Assembly (NCBI GenBank): GCA_040289575.1
Contig: PSLL01000002.1
Span: 71,741 to 102,041 of the forward strand
Direction of reading: 5' to 3'
From: Candidatus Dadabacteria bacterium
GTDB taxonomy: Bacteria > Desulfobacterota_D > UBA1144 > Nemesobacterales > CSP1-2
Length of the DNA: 30,301 bases
The stretch's first letter is position 1, and every line of letters starts with the position of its first letter. Under the pieces are notes generated by a model, which was not told where the DNA came from, did no database searches, and saw only the letters and a list, made by a program, of their open reading frames with translations. Shown one piece after another: positions 3,894-23,776 of this stretch. Made by a program: the position numbers and the translations under genes.

Positions 3894-5054
3894 ATGGAAA
3901 ACACAATTCTGCCTCACGGAGGAAGGTTGATAAACAGGGTTGTTGTGGGTCGAGAAAGAGAGGAGCTAATAAGAAGATCAAAAGAGATAAAAAAGATTTC
4001 GGTTTCTCCGAGGGTTGTGTCGGATTTGGAACTCATCTCTATTGGTGCAATGAGTCCCAACGAGGGCTTTATGGGAAAAGACGACTATGAAAGCGTAGTC
4101 GAGAATATGAGGTTAAAAAATGGGCTTCCCTGGAGTGTTCCTATTACACTTCCGGTAACAAAAGAGGAAGCGGCAAATCTCAAAGAGGGTGAGGATGTGC
4201 TGCTCCTTGACGGGTCGGGAGATTCTATTGCCGTATTGCATCTTCAAGAGAAATTCTTTTATGATAAGAAAAAAGAGGCTAAAGAGGTCTATAGGACTAC
4301 GGATGATGCCCATCCCGGAGTTAAGGTGGTTTATTCTCAAGGGGATGTGCTCCTTGGTGGCAATATTAGCCTAATAAATCGCCCTCCAAATCCCGAGTTT
4401 CCCGAATACAGACTAGAGCCTGCGCAGACAAGGAGTCTGTTTAGAGAAAAGGGATGGAGGAGGGTAGTCGCATTTCAGACGAGAAACCCAATACACAGGG
4501 CGCACGAGTACCTTCAGAAATGTGCCCTTGAGATGTCAGACGGTCTTTTAATCCACCCAATTGTCGGCGAAACGAAAAGCGACGACGTTCCAGCTCATGT
4601 AAGGATGGAGTGCTACAAGGCACTGATTGAAAATTACTATCCGAAAAATAGAGTGGTGCTCTCCGTCCTTCCTGCCGCAATGAGGTATGCAGGCCCAAGA
4701 GAGGCGATCTTTCATGCGCTTATGAGAAAGAACTATGGATGCACGCATTTCATTGTGGGACGCGACCATGCGGGCGTGGGGAATTATTACGGAACCTATG
4801 ATGCCCATAAGATTTTTGATGAATTCAAATCTGAGGAGATAGGGATCACGCCTCTTTTTTTTGACCATGCGTTTTATTGTAAGAAGTGTGCCTCGATGGC
4901 TACGACAAAGACATGTCCTCACACACAGGAGTTTCACGTTGTTTTAAGCGGGACCAAGGTAAGAGAATTGCTAAAAAAGAAACAGGACCTGCCTCTTGAA
5001 TTCACAAGGCCGGAGGTAGGAAGGATTTTGATGGAGGCTTATGAGAGTCTTTAG
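3894..5054 (+). CDS. sat: Sulfate adenylyltransferase (ATP sulfurylase)
   Basis: [47 protein letters not shown], CxxC...CPH zinc site, SGTKVR. Confidence 0.97.
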
Positions 5055-12515: not shown

Positions 12516-15500
12516 ATGGAGATGAGTACTGTTCGTAAAAGAGAGAATCAATATCTTACCGACATTACTAGGTCTAGAAAATTAGAAATTCGAGACGACC
12601 TAGAAAGTTTGTACCCCGATGTATATACACCGGAAGCTATGACCGCTCTGTTATATATGGCCAGGTTTAATGAAGAACAAAAAATGCTCATGGCAAAAAG
12701 GATAAAAAGAAGACTGGAGCGGTTTCGGAACAAACAAAGAATAACGTTTCTTGACCCTGATGATTATATCCCGCGGACGAACATTAAGGTGCAAGACGCA
12801 AGGGATGGGAAGTTTGTTGGGTCGGAAATACCAAAGGACCTACAGCGACAGTGGATTCAAGGAACTGGGCCTGGGACAAAACCGAATGCACCGATTGAAA
12901 AAAGCATCCGGAATGTTGCCTATGCATTACTTTCCGGCGCGGATGGTTGGATGTTTGACGGAGAAGATGCCCTTGGTCAGATTACAACGATGTCATTAGA
13001 CAATCAAAGAAACCTAAAGCTAGCCTTTCAAAAAGACCCAATTTTTATGAAAGCCGCCGAGCAGGTTGCTAAGGAGATGAACGAATGGGCACTCGGGTTT
13101 TTCGGGAGGAAAATCATCAAAGATTGGGAAGAACAATTAGATTTTACGACGAAGATTTTCCGTGTTCGAGGATTGCATTTAGACGACCGGCACATTCGCG
13201 ATGAAAATGGTGTGGCGCTCTCGGCCTCAATCGTCGATTTGGTACTTTATGTCGTAAACAACTATCAGGTATTGCAGAGATCTGGCTCATCAATCGTTTT
13301 ATATCTGCCTAAGATTCAGACTGCGGAGGAGGCGGCGCTCTGGAATGAGATGCTCTCGGCCCTTGAAGAACATCTCGGCCTTCGCATCGGAACGATCAAG
13401 GTTTACGTTCTTGTTGAACAACTCGAAGCGACGTTTCAGTTGATGGAAATCAGGGCTGTTTTGGGCACACATTTCGTTGGATTTAATACGGGCAGATGGG
13501 ATTACATTAATAGTGTTGCCGATGCGATGGCATGGGATAAGGAATTTATCAACCCGAATATCGAAGCTATTACGATGACTTACGGTTATATGAGGAATTA
13601 CGAAGACCGGGTACGTCGAGCGGTAAACACACCTGACTTGAACGGCAATTTTGCACTTTGGCAAGGGGGCATGGAGCCAAATATTCCAGTCGGTTCTGAA
13701 GAAGGTGTTAGAAGCGGCATGGAAAAAGCCGTATCAGGGGCGGAGCGTGAGCAGAGAGCAGGGGCCAGCGGCAAGTGGGTGGCGCATTGGAAGATGGTTC
13801 ATATCGTAAGGCCCGTCTGGGAAAAAGTCGGTGAGGACAACCAGCTTGGAAGGCCTTTCCCCCCCCTTACCTACACGCAGGAGGATGCAGATGGGTTATT
13901 GCTTCTCGAACCGGCCCCCAGAACAATTAGAGGAGCACGAAATCTTTTAAGCGTTGCCTTACAGTATGGTAATGCCTTTCTTCAGGGATATCAGGCTGCG
14001 GCTTTAAAGCCAGCCGACTTCTTTGGTAATGATGATGTCTTGTACCTGATGGAAGACATGGCAACGGGAGAGATTCGTCTTAGTATACTGTGGGAATGGA
14101 TCCACAAAGGAGCAAGACTCACCGAAGATGACCAAGAAACCGGATTAAGGGCAGAAGACGTTTTTACGGTGGATGTGTTTAAAAAATTATTGGAAGAAGA
14201 ATACCAAAAACTGCTTATGGCAAAAGATAAAGATGTTCATGATGATTCAAAAGGAACGACCCTACCTATTGCCAGGGAGATTGTCGAGGCGTATGTGCTT
14301 GACGATGTCAAGGCCCCTTGGTATATAGACCTTTTGAATACCAATCTAAATAATCATGACCTACAAATTGCCAAAGAGAGAATAAAAATGTACATGGAAG
14401 CATTCAAAAAAGATGGAGCTAGAATCACCGAAAATTTAGACTTTGTTCCATCTTCTCAGGCCGAAATTACGACAGAAGACGAAACGGATTTATTTGAGAA
14501 GGAAGTAAATGAAACAAAGCACTGGTTTTCGAGCCCACGCTTTAAAGGAATTACGCGTCTTTATTCCGCACGCCAGGTTGTACAACAGCGAGGGACTATT
14601 GAAATAGACTATCCGGTTGCAAGAAAAGCCGCAGAGGCATTTTATAATAGGTTAATGGAATTGTTTGCCAAAGGAGAACAAATTACGACATTTGGTCCGT
14701 ATTCTCCGAGTCAGGCGGTTACTATAAAACGTTTGGGTATCGAGGCCATATATCTAGGTGGATGGGCTACGTCCGCAAAAGGCTCGACGACAGAAGACCC
14801 TGGACCCGATTTGGCCAGTTACCCTTTGAGTCAAGTACCAGATGAGGCGGCTACCATCGTTCGGGCGTTGCTTACGGCGGATAGAAATCAAAAATACACA
14901 AGGTTTAAAATGACAGAAAAGGAGCGAAAGGCTACCCCGAAGATTGACTACAGGCCTTTTATAATTGCCGATGCCGATACCGGACATGGCGGTGATGCCC
15001 ATGTAAGAAACCTGATCCGGAGGTTTGTCGAGGTTGGTGTGCCGGGGTACCACATTGAAGACCAAAAGCCAGGTACCAAAAAATGCGGGCATCAGGGCGG
15101 TAAAGTGCTTGTTCCTGTGGATGAACAAATCAAAAGACTGAATGCCGCCAGGTTTCAGCTTGATATTATGAAAGTCCCGGGGATTATAGTTGCCAGGACC
15201 GATGCGGAAGCGGCGAATTTACTAGATGGACGGGGCGATGAACGCGACCACCCTTTCATATTAGGTGCAACTAACACAAACGTACCTGGTTACAAGGACT
15301 GCTATCTTGCCATCTTAAGAAGATTTTATGAAAAAGGGATAAAGGATGTTAACGGCCATTTGTTGTACAGAATATCCGAGGAAGAATACGAGGCCGCTTA
15401 TGAGTGGTTCAACCAAGTAGGACTTATGTCTTATATTGATGAAAACATTCAGGCTTTAAAAGAAGATAGGGAAAAAAGTATCTCAAAGCCACTCGACAAT

Positions 15501-16778
15501 GTTGTCACAAAATTTGTTGAAATATGGGAGGTGGAATCAAAGCTTAAGACATATGGGGAAGCCGTTGCGGATTTGATGGAATTTCAGATCGAAGAAGGCA
15601 GACAGCTCGACCTAACCGTTGACGAATGGCTTGATTTTTGTAAACGAGTATCGCTTCATAAGGCACAGGAAAAAGCGAGGTCAATGGGTATCGAAGCTAC
15701 CTGGGATTGTGAATTATCAAGAACACCAGAAGGTTACTATCAGGTCAAAGGCGGAATCGAATATGCGATCGCGAAATCACTTGCCGTTGCGCCCTTTGCT
15801 GACATTCTTTGGATGGAAAACAATACAGCGGATTTGGCTGAAGCAAAACATTTCGCTGACGCCATCCATGCGGTATACCCAGACAAGATGTTGGCCTACA
15901 ATTTGTCCCCTTCATTCAATTGGGACACAACTGGAATGACCGATGAAGAAATGCGGAATTTCCCAAAAGAATTGGGAAAACTCGGGTACGTTTTTAACTT
16001 TATCACATATGGAGGTCATCAAATTGACGGGTTGGCGGCCGAAGAATTTGCCACGGCTCTAAAACAGGATGGAATGCTTGCATTGGCTCGCGTGCAACGC
16101 AAGTTTAGATTACTCAACTCTCTATACAGGACACCCCAGACGTTGGTAGGAGGTCCACGCTTAGACGCCGCTCTGGCTGCAAGTTCCGGACGTACGGCGA
16201 CAACTAAGGCTATGGGCAAGGGCTCCACTCAGGTTCAGCATTTGGTTGAAACGGAGGTTCCACCCAGACTTCTCGAAAAATGGCTTGAGTTATGGGCGGC
16301 TCATTACAAATTTCCGCATAACTTGCGCGTTCAATTGCGACCTCATACGGCAGGTTCAGAACTGCTGGAATTGAATGTCTTGGATGAATCCGGTACCAAG
16401 ATTGCCGACGTTATATTTGCGACGATTCGTGATCGCAAAGGCAGAAATATTCTATCTATTAGGGATCAAAACAATTTTAACTTAGAATTCCGTAAAAAAC
16501 GCTTAATGACGATAATCCATTTGTTTTTGATTCACCGATATAAGATTGCTTCGGTTCATTATGTTACTCCCACCGAGGATAATCAGAAGAAGGCTGAAGG
16601 AATGAAGAAATTAGGTATTTATGACGAGGTAAACACCGAAATTGGTGATATCATCGTTGCCGGAGTTAATACGGAAAGGGTTAAAGAGCTACTTAATCCT
16701 GACCAAATAGAGCTAATGAATCTCATTACTAAAAGTCCGAGATCGAAAAAACAAAAGAAGCAAAGTAATCGGAAATAG
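12516..16778 (+). CDS. aceB-aceA: Bifunctional malate synthase (N-terminal) / isocitrate lyase ICL2-type (C-terminal) fusion
   Basis: Malate synthase motifs [29 protein letters not shown] and [10 protein letters not shown] lie in the first ~645 aa. ICL motifs DADTGHG, HIEDQ, KKCGH (15078-15092), VARTDAE and [10 protein letters not shown] follow, then an ICL2-like C-terminal domain ([21 protein letters not shown]). Single uninterrupted ORF. Confidence 0.93.
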
Positions 16779-16887
16779 GCCTGCGCTAAGCACAGTCCAG
16801 AGAGTTTCTTGGGGTCTATCTTTAACCACTTTTATATTGGAAATTGTATTATACCAGTTCTATTTTTCGATAGTGCATAACGAGGCT

Positions 16888-16981
16888 TGTCATTGCGAGG
16901 AATGCATTCGCTTCGCTCAGTGTAAACTCCGTGACGAAGCAATCTAAGGACACTGGAGATTGCTTCGCTCCTCAAGTCGCT
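16888..16981. repeat. REP-like palindromic repeat (GTCATTGCGAG...CGAAGCAATC type), right arm interrupted by IS110
   Basis: TGTCATTGCGAGG (16888-16900); inner inverted repeat CGAAGCAATCT (16935-16945)/AGATTGCTTCG (16957-16967). The expected closing arm CTCGCAATGACA stops after TCGCT at 16981. Confidence 0.75.
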
Positions 16982-17027
16982 CCATTAGACTTTTATATAG
17001 TGTGAATGTTAATTTTATCATAACAAA

Positions 17028-17167
17028 CCAGGGTGGAGTAAGTCTAAGCTTCGCTCAAAGCCATAGCTTATATTGCGAAATAAGACACCACCCTGGGGTA
17101 GAAACAAAACTATTATGGTATTTAAGTCTTGTAAAGACTAATAGTATGGAGCAAGTTCTAACTACCC
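17028..17167 (+). ncRNA. IS110 bridge RNA (target-binding loop plus donor-binding loop)
   Basis: Stem CCAGGGTGG/CCACCCTGG (17028-17036/17088-17096) encloses guides GCTTCGCT and ATTGCGA around a small hairpin. Stem GGTAG/CTACC encloses AAAACTATT-ATGG, hairpin AGTCTT/AAGACT and ATGGAG, the reverse complement of the element's own left junction CTCCAT. Confidence 0.75.
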
Positions 17168-17179
17168 GGAGGCGAAAAG

Positions 17180-17745
17180 ATGAAAAAGCCAGACTTTTTA
17201 TCGGTGTAGATACGAGTTCAGATACATTTGCTGTATCTGTGGGAACTAAAGACCCCTGGAGGGTGCTTAGCCTCTCTCAGATCTATGAGAACTCCACATC
17301 AGGGTTTGAGGATTTTCTGAAGTGGTTAGGCCAGAAGCGAGCTTTCCCTACCCATGGGCATAAGAACGAAATAACAGATAGCCAGCATTTAGCGGAGTAT
17401 GCATACAGATTCTTTGATGAGATTCACATGTGGCAACCACCTGATAATGTATTAAAGCAGATAAGGACCCTACTCAAGACAAGGGAGCAACTGACAAAAA
17501 ATCTTTCATCCTATCAGAGCACACTGAAGATTCTAAGGGGGGGGGGAAGTGGTTCGTACTCCGATTGCAGAGAAGATGTATGAGATTTGATAAAGGAACT
17601 AAGGTCTCTTATTAAGGAGATAGATAAGCAGATAATTAGTGGAGCAATACCCTTTTTTAGGCATAAGTTTAATCTTCTGCTTAGCATACCTGGTGTTGGA
17701 CTACAGTTTGCATCATACATACTTGTGATAACTGAGGAGGGGTAA
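17180..17745 (+). pseudogene. IS110 (DEDD) transposase, frameshifted and internally deleted
   Basis: GGAGG RBS plus ATG at 17180; FIGVDTSSDTF after a frameshift in a T run; KNEITDSQHLAEYAYRF; G10 run at 17537-17546; LLLSIPGVG helix-hairpin-helix motif. The ExTGxY region and C-terminal catalytic Ser domain are missing. Confidence 0.82.
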
Positions 17746-17905
17746 TAGGGAGTCCAGAGCAAAAGATATGGTTGCCTATATACTCAAAAGTGATGGGTTA
17801 AATGCAAATAGAGAAGAGGAAAAGAATCAATAGGGCTTGAAAAAAGCCCCCTCGGTGTGTTTGTAGATTTGTGCTAAATCCAACTTACACCTGAGGGGGC
17901 ACACA

Positions 17906-18388
17906 GTGATAGGCATCACCGTCATAGCTGAGAATGTATACGGATTCTTATACCAGTTCAAGGGTTATTTTCGATGCAAGCAGTCAAGGCACCTTGTGCT
18001 GTTTAGTTGGCTGGTGATAATGCTTATTATTGATCAAGGCAAGGACAAGATAAAGGAGTTGAGCCAGATGATGCCAGGGAGAATAAAGTATTGGTCATTG
18101 ATGCCAATGATAAGGAGTGGGCAGTGGGACGCACAGGAGGTGCTAGGAGATATGGCAAGAGAAGTCCTTCAGTGGCTACCTGGGGCCTATGATGAGGTGA
18201 TGTACTTGATAGCAGATGCAACAGCCAATGGCAAGAGAGGTAAGAAGCATCCCCTGGGACACAAGCTCAGGGTCAATGATTATAGCAGATACACATTTGG
18301 GTTTGAGGCGGTAATACTGATAACCCCTTGGGGTAGGTATTGTGTTCCTGTGGCAATAAGGCTGATTAATCCAAAGGATGTTTGCTGA
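17906..18388 (+). pseudogene. Truncated DDE transposase (IS701/IS4-like), N-terminal part only
   Basis: YLIADATANGKRGKK (first catalytic Asp region), YTFGFEAVIL, GRYCVPVAIRL, then an abrupt stop; RBS-sequestering hairpin upstream. Confidence 0.7.
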
Positions 18389-18583: not shown

Positions 18584-20947
18584 GTGCATAAACTCAAATT
18601 AGGTCTTTTAAATCTAAAATCAAATTTAAAAATCCTTTTATGCCTTCTTATCGCCTCATGCACAGCCGCCGGCAGCTCACTACTTCTGCTACCTGGCATC
18701 TCTTCAGACATATTACCCGTCGTTACACCGCTCATCATACTTAGGCCTACTGCAATAGGGTCGGTGCCTTCATTTGTTCTTCCCTTTAGTTCCAACCTCC
18801 GGGCAATGGTAATAACCCCCGACGGCTCCAAGCTCTACGCAACCGACAGCTTTAGTAATACGGTATCGGTAATAGACCTGTCAATAGATGATGTTATCGC
18901 CGTTATAGATGTTGGAAATGGGCCTACAAATATAGCAATAACACCGAACGGCACTAAGGCTTATGTGACTAATCCAGGCTCAGGCAACCAGCCGGGAAAT
19001 ACGGTATCGGTAATAGATATACCAACCAATCGAGTTATTTCTACAGTAACAATAGATGTAGGATTCAGACCGAGTAGCATAGCAATAACCCCGGATGGCT
19101 CTAAGGTTTATGTCACTGCGGTCTCCCCCGACGCGGGCAAGATATTGGTAATAGATGTGTCAAATGATCAAGTTATCGCCACAATAAATATAGGATCCAG
19201 GCCGAGCAGTATAGCCATAACCCCGGATAGTTCGAAGGTATATGTAGCTGATTCCGCCAATAATACGGTATCAGTAATAGATGTGTCAACTAATGCAGTT
19301 GTTACTACAATATCTGATATTGGGCCTAGCCCTAGCTTTGTATCAATAATCCCCGATGGTTCTAGGGTCTATGTATCTAATTCAGGCTCAGACAACCAGC
19401 CGGGAAATACGGTATCGGTAATAGATGTAAAAAAATCAGTAACAGATCCAGCAAATGCAGTTGTTGCTCAGATAACAGTGGGAGATAAACCCGGGACTAT
19501 AATTATAACCCCGGATGGCACTAGAGTCTATGTGGCCAATAGTATTAGTGACACGATATCGGTAATAAAGACATCAACCAATGAGGTTACTGATACGGTG
19601 AATGTCGGACCCAATCCTGTGGGTATGGCGATGACAGGAATGGGAAAGATTTCTAAACTCTATGTAGCCAATTCAGGTAACTCCCTCTCGCCGGGCAACA
19701 CTATATCGGTGATAAATACGTCAACCAATCAGGTCATTGATACAATCACCGTAGAACCCAGCCCTATTGCAGTATTGATAGCCCCAAATAGCTCCAGAGC
19801 CTATGTTGCCAGTATGGATACAGTATCGGTAATAGATGTACCAACTGATAAAGTCATTGCTACAATCTTTGCCAGGGGGTCAGGGCCCACCAATGTATTA
19901 ATAACCCCAGATGGGTCTAAGGCTTATGTAGTCAGTTCCGGTACAAATACCGTATCGATAATAAACATATCAACCGATCAGATTATTTCCACATTAAACG
20001 TAGGGTCGAGACCCAGCAGTATAGCAATAACCCCAGATGGCTCTAAGGTTTATGTAACCAACTTTTCAAGCAATACAGTTTCTGTAATAGACACATCAAC
20101 CGACGATATTATTGCCACAGTCAATGTAGGAAATGCACCCCTTAGCATAGCTATAACCCCCGATGGCTCTAGAGCCTATGTGGCTAATTTCGTTGACAAG
20201 ACGGTATCGGTAATAGACACATCAAATAATTCGGTTATTGATACAGTATCCGGTGTCGGTCCTGGACCCAACTCCATATCTATAACCCCGGATGGCGCGA
20301 GGGCTTATGTGACCAATGTGGGCAATAATAATCAAACCGGAAGCACAGTATCGGTAATAGACACATCAAATAATATGGTCTTTAACGCAGTGCATGTAGG
20401 TTTTAGACCCGTTGATTTATCAATAACCCCCGATGGGTCTAAAGCCTATGTTACTAATTTCTTTACCAGCACGGTGTCTGTAATAGATGTGTCAAACAAT
20501 TCGATTACTAATACAGTACAGGGTGTCGGTCCTGGACCCGGATTTATAGAGGTAACACCGGATGGCTCTAAAGTCTATATAGTCAATCCAGCTGATAAGT
20601 CTTCGTTCCCTGAAACCGGAAGCACGGTATCTGTGATTGATACGCAAACCGATACACTTATTGCTACAGTGCAGTTGGAATCAAAGCCTATTGATATAGC
20701 TATAACCCCGGATAGCACTGAGGTTCTTGTTCCCAACTACTTCAGCAATACCGTTTCAATAATAGACACATTGGCCAATCAAGTCATCGCTACGGTCAAT
20801 GTGGGGACTGCGCCACTGGGTATAGCCATAACCCCAGATGGCTCTAAGGCCTATGTCGCTAATTCTATAAGCAGAACAGTATCAGTGATAAATATATTAA
20901 CAAACGAGGTTAAAACAATCACTATTAATTCTAAGACTCCTGTTTAA
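18584..20947 (+). CDS. YVTN/YncE-type beta-propeller repeat protein, 16 blades, probably exported (possible lipoprotein)
   Basis: 16 repeats of AITPDGSKxYV...NTVSVID; N-terminal basic plus hydrophobic stretch with a LIASC lipobox-like motif. GTG start is uncertain. Confidence 0.9.
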   Translation: MHKLKLGLLNLKSNLKILLCLLIASCTAAGSSLLLLPGISSDILPVVTPLIILRPTAIGSVPSFVLPFSSNLRAMVITPDGSKLYATDSFSNTVSVIDLSIDDVIAVIDVGNGPTNIAITPNGTKAYVTNPGSGNQPGNTVSVIDIPTNRVISTVTIDVGFRPSSIAITPDGSKVYVTAVSPDAGKILVIDVSNDQVIATINIGSRPSSIAITPDSSKVYVADSANNTVSVIDVSTNAVVTTISDIGPSPSFVSIIPDGSRVYVSNSGSDNQPGNTVSVIDVKKSVTDPANAVVAQITVGDKPGTIIITPDGTRVYVANSISDTISVIKTSTNEVTDTVNVGPNPVGMAMTGMGKISKLYVANSGNSLSPGNTISVINTSTNQVIDTITVEPSPIAVLIAPNSSRAYVASMDTVSVIDVPTDKVIATIFARGSGPTNVLITPDGSKAYVVSSGTNTVSIINISTDQIISTLNVGSRPSSIAITPDGSKVYVTNFSSNTVSVIDTSTDDIIATVNVGNAPLSIAITPDGSRAYVANFVDKTVSVIDTSNNSVIDTVSGVGPGPNSISITPDGARAYVTNVGNNNQTGSTVSVIDTSNNMVFNAVHVGFRPVDLSITPDGSKAYVTNFFTSTVSVIDVSNNSITNTVQGVGPGPGFIEVTPDGSKVYIVNPADKSSFPETGSTVSVIDTQTDTLIATVQLESKPIDIAITPDSTEVLVPNYFSNTVSIIDTLANQVIATVNVGTAPLGIAITPDGSKAYVANSISRTVSVINILTNEVKTITINSKTPV

Positions 20948-20950
20948 AAA

Positions 20951-23776
20951 ATGATGGTCTACTCTCTGATGAGTCGAAAGAGGATCACCCATTACCCAAT
21001 TAAACTCCTTATAATACTACTCCTAAGTGCATGTGTAGGGGCAAATCATACGGATACCGAAATTAAAGGTGAAAGGGCAAGCCAGTTAGTCAAAGAAGCG
21101 GCAGACCTGTATGATAAAGGGAATTATGACAAGGCACTATATAAGCTCTCCGAGGCTGAAGAGCATGCTAAATCAACTGAGGATAAGATAAAAATCGCTG
21201 GTATATTATCTAAAGGTGGTTTTGGACTCATTGAGAAAAGACTATTTAGAACCTCGCTTTCATATTACGACCGCTCACTGGAAATAAATAGAATATTGAA
21301 TAACAAACCCGGGCTGGTTAATAACTATAGCTACATAGGAAAGGTGTATACAGAGATTGGAGAATACGAAAAGGGAATTGAATACTTTGAGAAGGCCTTG
21401 AAGGTGCAGGAGGAGTTGAATGATAAAAGCGGAATATCACACAACCTAAATAACATGGCCAACCTCTGTAGCTACTTAGGCAATTATCAAGAATCAATAA
21501 GGCTTTTAAACCGAGCTCTTAAGATTAGCGAAGAGATTAAAGATCCGTTTCAGACAGCAAAGACACTGATAAATCTGGGCACAATCAATTTCCGCCTAAG
21601 AAACTATCAAACCTCCATCGAATACCTAGACCGCGCCTTTAAGATTGCCGATAGCACAAAAGAAGAGAACCTAAAAGCCTACGCCCTTAATCTAATAGGG
21701 GTCGTCAATAGGTCTCAGGGCAATTATGAAAGGGCATTGGATAATTACAAAAGGGCGCTAAAGATAAATAAAAAGCTGGGACTTAAGCCCGAGATTGCCA
21801 TGAATCTCAGTATAATAGGGGAGTTATATAAAGAGTTGGGGCGTTATGATGAAGCCCTTAAATACCTCAAGCAGTCACTCGACATATCTGAGTCATTGAA
21901 TGATAGATTAATAACAGCGGCGAATCTAAATTATATAGGGGAAGTGAGATATAAACAGGGGAATTATGGGGAAGCCCTAAGACTCTATAATTCCTCACTG
22001 GCAATATCCCAAAAACTGGGTTTTAAAGACGGAATAGCACGAAGCCTCAATAACATCGGCTATCTGAAAGGCGATATGAAGGAATGGGACTCTGCGATAG
22101 AGGACCTAGATAAAGCCATATCAATCTATAAAGACCTCGGAGACAGGGAGTGGATTCGAGTCTCACTATTTGGAAGGGGACTTTATTCAGAGAAAAAGGG
22201 AGACCTGGCATCAGCCGAAAAGAGCTATAAAGAGGCGGTTGATGTATTTGAGTCAATAAGGGAAGACGTTACGGGTGGAAAAGAGGCACAGCAACTCTTT
22301 AGCGATGTCAACGTAAGGGTCTATGAAAGGCTCGTATCGCTTCTACTGAGATTGGGGAAGAAAGAAGAGGCTCTCGAATACATTGAAAGGAGCAGGTCCA
22401 AGGCTCTCCGCGATACGTTCCTTAGAAGCGGTATAAGTTCCTCTGATGAAAAGACAAGGGGACTTCTCAGCCTCTATAATCAACTGTTTCACAAAGAGGC
22501 ATCAATAAGCTATAAAATCGCGGAGGAAAAATCAAAACCCTCGCCCAACTCGGAGAAGATTGATAACCTGGTAAAAACACTTGCAAAGACAAAGGAGGAG
22601 TTCAATCGTGTAAGCTCTCAACTAAGTGTCAAGCATAATGATATATACAAACTCCTCAGCATACGACCCGGAAAACTTTTGGATTTAGAACGAGAAAATA
22701 AACTTCCTCTTAATGTCGCTTTTGTAGAGTACTTCATCACCGATAAACAGACATACATATTCGTTATAAACAGAAGGGACTTAATTGTAAAAGGCGTTTC
22801 TGTATCGAAAGAAGAGCTGAAAAGATCGGTAACGCTCTTTAGGATACTGATAGAGAAGAACAAATCCAATCCGACAAATAATTGGCGAGACGACGGCAGT
22901 AACAGGTATAGAAGTGATATAAAACCATTAAAAGAAATATCAACGCGGTTGTACCATCTCCTTATAAAACCGATTGAGGATGATATAAGGGGTGCGGATA
23001 TAGTGGCAATAATCCCGTTTGGATTCCTTGATTACCTTCCATTTCATGTCTTGAGTGAGGAGAGGGCAGATGGTGGTTTAGATTTCTTTATAGAGAAGAG
23101 GAGGTTGGTTTATCTGGTATCCACATCTACCAACTATCTGAACCTGGCCTTGAGAAACGATAGAAGAAGAGAAATCAGGAGGGTCGCCGCTTTTGGCAAT
23201 CCAGACCTTGGGGAACCAGAACTCGCTCTTCCCGATTCTGAAAAAGAGGTATTAGTTATAAAGGAGATGTTTCCTAATACAACCATCTTCTTAAAGAAGG
23301 ATGCTACTAAAGACAATTTCAAAAACAGCTGGGGGAAAAATGAGATAATACATTTGGCAGCTCACGGACTTATACAGGATGAGCCTTCAATACTACTAGC
23401 CCCATTGGGTTCGGGGAGTCTCACCCTCTCAGATATTACGGGGCTGCCCCCGGCAAGAAACACACACTTGGTAGTTCTTTCAGCATGCAATGCGGCAATA
23501 GACCATAATGAAGCCAACTCGAATGGAACGGGGCTAAATAGCATAGCATTCGCTTTTACAATGGTGGGTGTGCCCTCAGTTATTGCCACACTCTGGGAGA
23601 TAGACGACCGTGCCACATCCGAGCTAATGTCTAGTTTTTATAAGAACCTAAAGACCGATGGTAGATTCGACTATCAGTCATTAAGGATGGTCCAGATTGA
23701 TATGCTAAAAAGGCCGGATAAATACGGTCAGCCTTTTTATTGGGCTCCGTTCATACTATTAGGCGTATGGAATTAG
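20951..23776 (+). CDS. TPR-CHAT (caspase/HetF-like) protease with a lipoprotein signal peptide
   Basis: RKR..KLLIILLLSAC lipobox; ~10 TPR repeats; ERSRSKAL; CHAT motifs LYHLLIKPI, IIPFGFLDYLPF, IHLAAHG (His 23363-23365), VVLSACN (Cys 23486-23488), TLWEIDD and PFYWAPFILLG. Confidence 0.93.
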   Translation: MMVYSLMSRKRITHYPIKLLIILLLSACVGANHTDTEIKGERASQLVKEAADLYDKGNYDKALYKLSEAEEHAKSTEDKIKIAGILSKGGFGLIEKRLFRTSLSYYDRSLEINRILNNKPGLVNNYSYIGKVYTEIGEYEKGIEYFEKALKVQEELNDKSGISHNLNNMANLCSYLGNYQESIRLLNRALKISEEIKDPFQTAKTLINLGTINFRLRNYQTSIEYLDRAFKIADSTKEENLKAYALNLIGVVNRSQGNYERALDNYKRALKINKKLGLKPEIAMNLSIIGELYKELGRYDEALKYLKQSLDISESLNDRLITAANLNYIGEVRYKQGNYGEALRLYNSSLAISQKLGFKDGIARSLNNIGYLKGDMKEWDSAIEDLDKAISIYKDLGDREWIRVSLFGRGLYSEKKGDLASAEKSYKEAVDVFESIREDVTGGKEAQQLFSDVNVRVYERLVSLLLRLGKKEEALEYIERSRSKALRDTFLRSGISSSDEKTRGLLSLYNQLFHKEASISYKIAEEKSKPSPNSEKIDNLVKTLAKTKEEFNRVSSQLSVKHNDIYKLLSIRPGKLLDLERENKLPLNVAFVEYFITDKQTYIFVINRRDLIVKGVSVSKEELKRSVTLFRILIEKNKSNPTNNWRDDGSNRYRSDIKPLKEISTRLYHLLIKPIEDDIRGADIVAIIPFGFLDYLPFHVLSEERADGGLDFFIEKRRLVYLVSTSTNYLNLALRNDRRREIRRVAAFGNPDLGEPELALPDSEKEVLVIKEMFPNTTIFLKKDATKDNFKNSWGKNEIIHLAAHGLIQDEPSILLAPLGSGSLTLSDITGLPPARNTHLVVLSACNAAIDHNEANSNGTGLNSIAFAFTMVGVPSVIATLWEIDDRATSELMSSFYKNLKTDGRFDYQSLRMVQIDMLKRPDKYGQPFYWAPFILLGVWN

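What the first reader, a model, noticed from the sequence alone, without database searches (positions are those of the whole stretch)
16888..17167. IS110 bridge RNA whose guides spell out the REP-like repeat it has interrupted
Seen: loop 1 (stem 17028-17036/17088-17096) holds GCTTCGCT (17048-17055) and ATTGCGA (17072-17078; reverse complement TCGCAAT), which together give the target GCTTCG-CT-CGCAAT. The adjacent palindrome's left arm TGTCATTGCGAG predicts a right arm CTCGCAATGACA, which breaks off exactly after TCG-CT (16977-16981), where the element begins with CCAT. Loop 2 holds ATGGAG (17146-17151), the reverse complement of this junction (CTCCAT), and AAAACTATT followed by ATGG. Known: IS621 has a left-end bridge RNA with the same two-loop layout and a CT core, and it targets E. 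coli REPs. Inference: this IS110 is programmed against a different repeat family, with a predicted donor of about AAACTAT-CT-CCAT. Only the core-proximal 5 nt of the actual left flank match the left guide.
Basis: partly seen in the sequence, partly recalled or inferred. Interest (0 to 1): 0.8.

Follow-up and report, generated by a model that had tools for sequence, protein, structure and literature searches.

The report
Relic IS110 bridge RNA targeting a palindromic repeat
This is the leftover front end of a broken IS110 jumping gene whose guide RNA still spells out the palindromic repeat it landed in; it is an ordinary new example of a mechanism described in 2024.

Summary
Window 17025-17169 (+) encodes a two-loop RNA in the left end of an IS110 element that begins at about 16982.

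A covariance model built only from 66 distant relatives finds it at 92.7 bits, E=1.5e-20. Its stems covary strongly. The recombinase family matches the solved IS621 and ISCro4 bridge recombinases.

Across relatives, all four guide segments match their own flanks or ends far better than those of other copies. The closest intact relative, L001, carries a compensatory change. Its right guide ATCGCGA faces a right flank TCGCGAT, where the window has ATTGCGA and a repeat arm that implies TCGCAAT.

- The shared crossover dinucleotide is TC, not CT.
- The left donor guide is ATGGTATT, not AAACTAT.

The window's copy is dead. Its gene has frameshifts and an internal deletion of about 129 nt. The last ~327 nt, including the right end, are missing.

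Verdict: a new member of a known kind. The published IS110 dataset already lists targets in this type of repeat.

The parts
16888..16899 (+). Outer left arm of the target repeat (TGTCATTGCGAG). Its reverse complement, CTCGCAATGACA, is the predicted lost right arm.
   Evidence: It is the only exact TCGCAATGACA in the window, on the minus strand.
16935..16967 (.). Inner inverted repeat of the target repeat: CGAAGCAATCT and AGATTGCTTCG, with 11 nt between the arms.
   Evidence: pair I1: 11-nt arms, 100% complementary.
16962..16970 (+). Exact copy of the left target guide 9-mer, GCTTCGCTC, in the flank. A second copy lies at 16910-16918.
   Evidence: (family D2).
16970..16976 (+). 7-nt insertion (CCTCAAG) relative to the flank of relative L001. 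It separates the perfect guide match from the junction.
   Evidence: pairwise alignment.
16981..16982 (+). TC core at the left junction.
   Evidence: TC is shared by both junctions in relatives and occurs once in empty sites.
16983..17179 (+). Left end of the IS110 element, with the right donor CATTA followed by GAC at 16983-16990.
   Evidence: CCATTAGACT starts the element in most relatives; homology to L001.
17028..17096 (+). Target-binding stem-loop. Stem 17028-17036 with 17088-17096. GTCT 17042-17045 with AGAC 17083-17086. Inner hairpin AAGC 17058-17061 with GCTT 17066-17069.
   Evidence: Helix 1 has 8 of 9 pairs with changes on both sides.
17048..17056 (+). Left target guide GCTTCGCTC. 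It has the same sense as the left target (7 nt) plus the TC core.
17072..17078 (+). Right target guide ATTGCGA, the reverse complement of TC+GCAAT.
17097..17166 (+). Donor-binding stem-loop. GGTAG 17097-17101 with CTACC 17162-17166. AACT 17108-17111 with AGTT 17154-17157. Inner hairpin 17125-17139.
   Evidence: helices 3 and 4.
17115..17122 (+). Left donor guide ATGGTATT. It predicts a lost right end ...ATGGTAT-TC.
   Evidence: L001's right end is CATGGTAT-TC and its loop holds ATGGTATT. Across the family, 31 of 46 unique pairs match 8 of 8.
17146..17151 (+). Right donor guide ATGGA, the reverse complement of TC+CAT, plus a conserved G.
17180..17782 (+). IS110 recombinase pseudogene. ATG at 17180 follows GGAGG at 17168-17172. 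There is a -1 frameshift near 17195, a ~129-nt internal deletion near 17328-17335, a frameshift at the G-run 17537-17546, and stops at about 17743. Homology ends at about 17782, so the C-terminal ~100 aa and the right end are missing.
   Evidence: (PF01548, E=2e-7).

Best explanation
Window ~16982-17782 is the decayed front part of an IS110-group insertion sequence. It inserted into the right half of a nested palindromic repeat.

Its left end encodes a bridge RNA of the IS621 type, made of two stem-enclosed internal loops.
[quoted passage not shown] Together they specify the 14-nt site GCTTCGC-TC-GCAAT.
- In the second loop, ATGGTATT and ATGGA would read the element's own joined ends, ATGGTAT-TC-CATTA.

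An intact element of this clade would excise as a circle and recombine at the TC core, guided by this RNA.

What is shown computationally: the homology, the fold covariation, and the guide-to-DNA concordance in relatives. What is inferred: transcription of the RNA, the pairing itself, and recombination.

This copy cannot move on its own. Its recombinase gene is broken and its right end is gone.
For: 1. Gene and family. PF01548 hits the ORF fragment. Intact homologues of 341-360 aa carry PF01548 and PF02371. The closest one, P0003, matches ISCro4 transposase 9t56_A (E=1.7e-31) and IS621 transposase 8wt6_A (E=2.5e-29) over its full length.

2. RNA. Model R1 was built from 66 relatives, excluding the window and L001. 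It hits window 17025-17169 (+) across the full model at 92.7 bits, E=1.5e-20, and nothing else in the window. On 68 sequences, 95.0% of cells pair against 80.5% when shuffled. 15 of 20 pairs change on both sides. The covariation score is 0.476 against 0.201 shuffled and at most 0.145 when slid.

3. Guides, each tested with 5000 permutations; 0 reached the cognate mean in any test.
- Right target guide against TC plus 5 nt: of 51 unique pairs from 66 loci, 35 match 7 of 7, 14 match 6 of 7 and 2 match 5 of 7. Only 1.8% of non-cognate pairs match 7 of 7.
- Left target guide against 9 nt: 59 unique pairs from 67 loci, mean 6.39 against 4.78 for non-cognate pairs.
- Left donor guide: 31 of 46 unique pairs match 8 of 8.
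- Right donor guide: 21 of 38 unique pairs match 6 of 6.

4. L001. The left flank GCTTCGCTC equals the guide 9 of 9. The guide ATCGCGA faces the flank TCGCGAT, where the window has ATTGCGA.

5. Empty sites. The sequence left flank + C + right flank occurs unoccupied with exact 19 of 19 matches, at L020:2107 and at L006:1453.

6. Layout. [quoted passage not shown] The site is 14 nt with the core at positions 8-9 (bioRxiv 10.1101/2025.05.14.653916, passages).
Against: - The window's own right junction is lost, so its right guide cannot be checked against a real flank. The check rests on the palindrome's left arm and on relatives.
- The actual left flank matches the guide at only 6 of 9 positions. 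That is within the family range, where 18 of 59 pairs score 6.
- The window's RNA has two 1-nt insertions relative to L001, one next to the right target guide and one in the donor loop.
- No expression data exist.
- No Rfam family matches, even at E<=10.
- The permutation tests do not correct for relatedness among loci.
- Right junctions were located with a pattern that required TC, so TC at every right end is partly by construction. Independent support comes from the raw listing and the empty sites.
Confidence: 0.9

Rival explanations
1. The crossover core is CT, as in IS621 and. The target would then be GCTTCG-CT-CGCAAT and the element would begin CCAT.
For: - Nearly all left flanks end in CT.
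- The conserved ATGGAG is the reverse complement of CTCCAT.
- IS621 and IS622 use CT.
- A target of this repeat type in the published dataset is centred so that CT precedes CGCAATGAC (supplementary file 4, target_seq3290).
Against: - Right junctions read ...AT-TC-G or ...AA-TC-G, never CT.
- Only TC is common to both junctions, and it occurs once in exact empty sites.
- The reverse complement of the right target guide reads (A/C/T)(T/A)-TC-, not CT.
- The overlap of the left and right guide footprints is TC.
Confidence: 0.08
2. The relic is not inert. Its RNA is still made and guides a recombinase supplied in trans by intact copies elsewhere in the same genome.
For: - The stems and all four guide segments are intact, and the model score is high.
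- A sigma-70-like site, TTTATA-18-TATCAT, lies at 16992-21 just upstream of the first stem.
- Bridge RNA works in trans for IS621 (PMC11208160, passages).
Against: - No intact copy is in the window.
- The element shows heavy decay, and promoter-like matches are weak evidence.
Confidence: 0.15
3. The complementarity is coincidental. The region is only a structured 5' leader or promoter of the transposase gene.
For: The single-sequence fold is only modestly better than shuffles (z=-2.45). TCGCAAT is common in the window.
Against: All four guide segments co-vary family-wide with flanks that lie outside the element. L001 shows a compensatory change.
Confidence: 0.02

Closest known systems
IS621 and ISCro4 (IS622) bridge recombinase with bridge RNA (Durrant et al. 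2024, PMC11208160; Perry et al. 2025 preprint, 10.1101/2025.05.14.653916)
   Same: - The RNA is encoded in a long left end upstream of a DEDD/Tnp recombinase, and the right end is short.
- Two internal loops are present, each with a same-sense 5' guide of 8-9 nt and an antisense 3' guide of 5-7 nt that overlap on a 2-nt core.
- The site is 14 nt, split 7+2+5.
- The base next to the right target guide matches left donor position 7 in 52 of 65 loci but left target position 7 in only 2 of 65. This resembles the published handshake guide.
- The protein is homologous at E about 1e-30.
   Different: - The core is TC rather than CT.
- The RNA sequence is too different for any Rfam hit.
- The target is a different repeat.
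- GAC is nearly fixed at positions +6 to +8 after the core in targets, and it is also present in the donor.
- The window's copy is a pseudogene.
ISPpu9 and ISPpu10 of Pseudomonas putida, IS110 elements that insert into REP or stem-loop intergenic repeats (PMC12288879, search listing only; 10.64898/2026.03.19.712850, abstract only)
   Same: An IS110 element aimed at a multicopy palindromic intergenic sequence. For ISPpu10 a target stem-loop is reported as an extra specificity determinant.
   Different: The hosts and the repeat sequence differ. No test here shows that the hairpin itself is recognised.
IS1111-group elements
   Same: Same recombinase superfamily and RNA-guided logic (PMC11208160, section 12).
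   Different: IS1111 elements carry the RNA in a long right end and have 7-17-bp subterminal inverted repeats. Here the RNA is in the left end, and the subterminal repeat is about 5 bp (AAGTC...GACTT, read).

Membership tests
IS110-group bridge RNA (IS621 type) | Encoded in the left end, upstream of an IS110 DEDD recombinase gene | tested here: met
   PF01548 on the downstream ORF fragment. Homologues carry PF01548 and PF02371. Homology to IS621 and ISCro4 structures.
IS110-group bridge RNA (IS621 type) | Two stem-enclosed internal loops, conserved and covarying | tested here: met
   The model built without the window hits it at 92.7 bits, E=1.5e-20.
IS110-group bridge RNA (IS621 type) | The 5' side of loop 1 matches the left target plus core (8-9 nt) | tested here: met
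   Window: 6 of 9 with the actual flank, and 9 of 9 with 16962-16970, 12 nt upstream. L001: 9 of 9. Family mean 6.39 against 4.78.
IS110-group bridge RNA (IS621 type) | The 3' side of loop 1 is complementary to core plus right target (4-7 nt) | tested here: inconclusive
   The window's right junction is lost. The guide matches the arm predicted from 16888-16899. In relatives, 35 of 51 unique pairs match 7 of 7.
IS110-group bridge RNA (IS621 type) | The loop 2 guides match the element's own ends | tested here: inconclusive
   Right donor: ATGGA against TCCAT at 16981-16985, met. Left donor: the right end is missing in the window. It is met in L001 and in 31 of 46 unique relative pairs.
IS110-group bridge RNA (IS621 type) | CT core dinucleotide, a feature of IS621 and IS622 rather than of the whole family | tested here: not met
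   TC is shared by both junctions and occurs once in empty sites.
IS110-group bridge RNA (IS621 type) | The RNA is transcribed and required for recombination | not testable with these tools
   Only promoter-like matches are available.
IS110 recombinase (functional copy) | Intact RuvC-like DEDD domain plus a Tnp domain with a conserved serine motif | tested here: not met
   The window's gene has frameshifts and a ~129-nt deletion, and it lacks the region that aligns with the conserved SGTSV block. The catalytic role of that serine is recalled, not tested.
REP-like extragenic palindromic repeat (the target) | Palindromic, intergenic and multicopy in the genome | tested here: inconclusive
   It is palindromic and intergenic. 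Only one copy lies in the window, and the rest of the genome was not available. A similar GATTGCTTCG motif (up to 2 mismatches) lies within 45 nt of the junction in 20 of 61 relatives.

The most novel reading that the evidence does not exclude
This IS110 clade may use a fixed, non-guide-encoded flank in addition to RNA pairing.

GAC sits at positions +6 to +8 after a TC core in 43-47 of 49 unique target flanks, across 25 different right-target classes. The same GAC sits at the same offset in the donor (CATTA-GAC). No contiguous guide extension can pair with it.

It could be a protein-read, PAM-like or hairpin-linked determinant. Such a determinant might tie the clade to one nested palindromic repeat type found in MAGs labelled as many bacterial phyla and some archaea.
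Probability: 0.25. Interest if true: 0.55.

Novelty: new member of a known kind. Interest (0 to 1): 0.35.

Why it matters
The finding shows that the bridge-RNA logic can be read straight from a raw, decayed element. The relic still records the 14-nt address of the repeat it entered.

At the family level it adds a well-sampled natural clade with a TC core and clear covariation in all four guides. It also raises a possible fixed GAC flank. These features could be useful to people engineering bridge recombinases with other core or flank preferences.

It does not change the known mechanism.

Tried and rejected
- Rfam, at gathering thresholds on the whole window and at E<=10 on 16850-17250: no family.
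- A second copy of the repeat or the lost right arm in the window: none.
- Synteny between L001 and the window: none outside the element and its repeat, so these are independent insertions.
- Literature string search for four 11-mers of the repeat: 28 papers hold at least one, and the 15 listed are unrelated to this repeat (mostly eukaryotic or clinical studies), with single chance occurrences.
- Supplement search of PMC11208160. The left-end motif occurs only in a synthetic oligo, and the two Dadabacteria protein entries found there are unlike this recombinase. Two listed targets do carry this repeat type. The supplementary files were cut when stored, so absence there means little.
- A first left-guide count used a loop window that was too short and gave spuriously low scores. 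It was redone.
- A junction promoter was only read by eye: TTGACA in the right end, 17 nt, then TAGACT in the left end, for L001. It was not tested.

Full report
**What is in the window**

The region lies in an intergenic stretch after a 1420-aa gene that ends at 16778. It consists of three parts:
- A nested palindrome. The outer left arm is TGTCATTGCGAG at 16888-16899. The inner arms are 16935-16945 and 16957-16967.
- The string CCATTAGACT, starting at 16982.
- A 200-nt non-coding stretch, followed by a broken IS110 gene.

The gene fragment hits PF01548 at E=2e-7. Alignment with intact 341-360-aa homologues, a three-frame translation and blastn against relative L001 show the damage:
- a -1 frameshift just after the ATG at 17180;
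- an internal deletion of about 129 nt;
- a frameshift at the G-run 17537-17546;
- stop codons near 17743;
- loss of homology at about 17782, roughly 327 nt short of the element's end.

The right end and right junction are therefore gone. A DDE_5 transposase fragment follows at 17906-18388.

**Relatives**

That scan matched 370 stretches, of which 349 encode a relative; the best 80 were kept.

L001 is from a record titled Candidatus Dadabacteria bacterium CSP1-2. It is the closest locus, 73% identical to the scan's query protein P0003, and it is intact. The other loci are 39-51% identical. They come from MAGs labelled Chloroflexi, Ignavibacteria, Bacteroidota, Elusimicrobia, Atribacteria and others, and a few are labelled archaeal.

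From the 80 loci I dropped 8 with an upstream region identical to another locus, 4 without the conserved loop anchor (contig ends or divergent) and 1 that was too short. That left 67 unique left ends.

**The RNA**

The 67 left ends plus the window align well (A3). RNAalifold predicts two outer stems and two short clamps, 20 pairs in all, and 15 of them show compensatory changes.

Counting on the named structure gives the following:
- 95.0% of cells pair, against 80.5% in shuffles (0 of 500 shuffles as high).
- 222 cells change on both sides, against 67 in shuffles.
- The covariation score is 0.476, against 0.201 shuffled and at most 0.145 when the 3' partners are slid by 1-3 columns.

A covariance model was built from 66 relatives, leaving out both the window and L001. 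It finds window 17025-17169 (+) over all 138 model positions at 92.7 bits, E=1.5e-20. It finds L001 at 111.3 bits, and nothing else in the window. Rfam has no matching family, even at E<=10.

**The guides**

L001 settles the central question. Its left junction reads ...GATTGCTTCGCTTCGC-TC-CATTAGAC, and loop 1 holds GCTTCGCTC, a 9 of 9 match. Its right end reads ...CTTGACAAAGTCATGGTAT-TC-GCGATGACA, and loop 1 holds ATCGCGA, the reverse complement of TCGCGAT. The window's loop has ATTGCGA instead, and the window's repeat arm implies TCGCAAT. This is a compensatory change between guide and target.

Family-wide, I scored each loop side against each flank or end. I took the best ungapped offset for cognate and non-cognate pairs alike, and counted identical guide-target pairs once.

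| Guide | Compared with | Loci | Unique pairs | Result |
|---|---|---|---|---|
| Right target guide | TC + 5 nt (7 nt) | 66 | 51 | 35 at 7/7, 14 at 6/7, 2 at 5/7; 1.8% of non-cognate pairs at 7/7 |
| Left target guide | 9 nt | 67 | 59 | mean 6.39 vs 4.78; scores 4 to 9 in 2, 11, 18, 20, 6 and 2 pairs |
| Left donor guide | 8 nt | 66 | 46 | 31 at 8/8 |
| Right donor guide | 6 nt | 69 | 38 | 21 at 6/6, 16 at 5/6, 1 at 4/6 |

In each test, 0 of 5000 permutations reached the cognate mean. These permutations ignore relatedness among loci. Eight loci had no usable right junction.

The window's real left flank scores 6 of 9, which is typical for the family. Relative to L001's flank it carries a 7-nt insertion, CCTCAAG, at 16970-16976. 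The perfect 9-mer sits just upstream at 16962-16970. Either the flank decayed after insertion, like the element itself, or the element entered a variant repeat.

**The core**

In the raw right ends the element is followed by TC-G or TC-A, preceded by T or A, and never by CT. At left junctions the flank ends in T and the element starts with C.

I joined left flank + C + right flank and searched all loci for the result. This found unoccupied sites, including exact 19 of 19 matches at L020:2107 (for L020 and L022) and at L006:1453 (for L002). TC is thus present at both junctions and once in the empty site. It is also the overlap of the two guide footprints, which is how the published work defines the core.

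The 14-nt target is unchanged and reads GCTTCGC-TC-GCAAT, with the core at positions 8-9 as in IS622. One caveat applies: my pattern for locating right junctions required TC.

**The donor**

Right ends finish CATGGTAT-TC in L001 and CATAGTA(A/T)-TC in most relatives, and they co-vary with loop 2. The window's left donor guide is therefore ATGGTATT at 17115-17122, not AAACTAT. ATGGA at 17146-17150 reads TC+CAT.

The base next to the core-binding end of the right target guide matches left donor position 7 in 52 of 65 loci, but left target position 7 in only 2 of 65. This resembles the published handshake guide.

**Comparison with known systems**

P0003 matches ISCro4 transposase (9t56_A, E=1.7e-31) and IS621 transposase (8wt6_A, E=2.5e-29). 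The layout agrees with Durrant et al. 2024 (PMC11208160): a long left end, a short right end, and 8-9-nt and 4-7-nt guides. I read passages of that paper and its section 12. Section 12 also reports predicted bridge RNAs in 85.7% of ISfinder IS110-group elements.

Their supplementary target list holds two entries of this repeat type, target_seq3290 and target_seq3295 (the files were cut when stored). This is therefore a new member of a known kind.

IS110 elements that target REP-like or stem-loop repeats are known: ISPpu9 (search listing only) and ISPpu10 (abstract only).

**What stays open**

- Whether the RNA is expressed.
- Whether intact copies exist in this genome.
- The meaning of the nearly fixed GAC at +6 to +8 of targets (G in 47, A in 46 and C in 43 of 49 unique flanks) and in the donor.
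- The exact cleavage positions.

Noticed in passing
Right flanks of L001-L080; window 16988-16990: GAC is nearly invariant at positions +6 to +8 after the TC core in targets (G in 47, A in 46 and C in 43 of 49 unique flanks, across 25 right-target classes). The donor has GAC at the same offset (CATTA-GAC). No contiguous guide extension could pair with it.
   Followed up: partly
L049, L050, L052, L053, L054 (one Elusimicrobia chromosome, OY969767.1): Five identical copies have CC at the left junction (...CTTTCG-CC-TATTAGAC) but TC at the right junction. Both target-loop guides and the right donor guide read CC. The first core position therefore differs between the two junctions.
   Followed up: no
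window 16888-16903, minus strand: Read on the minus strand, the intact left arm is an unoccupied near-target: GCATTCC-TC-GCAATGACA. The right guide matches 7 of 7 and the left guide 6 of 9 including the core. This match was counted by eye, not by a script.
   Followed up: no
Joined ends of L001 (about 4030-4052, then 2779-2795): In the predicted circle junction, the conserved TTGACA of the right end lies 17 nt upstream of TAGACT in the conserved left end. This may be a junction promoter, as described for IS621. In L002 and L003 the same spacing leads to TATAAT. Read by eye only.
   Followed up: no
window 17906-18388: A truncated DDE_5 (PF13546) transposase fragment lies just beyond the point where the IS110 remnant ends. 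It may mark the event that removed the IS110 right end.
   Followed up: no
window 12516-16778: A single 1420-aa ORF fuses malate synthase domains (PF01274, PF20659) with an isocitrate lyase domain (PF00463). Both glyoxylate-shunt enzymes are in one protein.
   Followed up: no
window 18584-23776: A 787-aa protein of repeated beta-propeller blades is followed by a 941-aa TPR plus CHAT-domain protein.
   Followed up: no
L058 about 240-290: The donor loop region carries a tandem duplication of about 22 nt that includes the right donor guide.
   Followed up: no
L009, L015, L027, L028, L032, L042: Some relatives sit on contigs binned as archaea (Methanothrix, Methanospirillum, Aenigmatarchaeota, Methanosarcinales, Woesearchaeota). 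Most of these contigs are short, so the binning may be unreliable. L028 is on a 28.9-kb contig.
   Followed up: no
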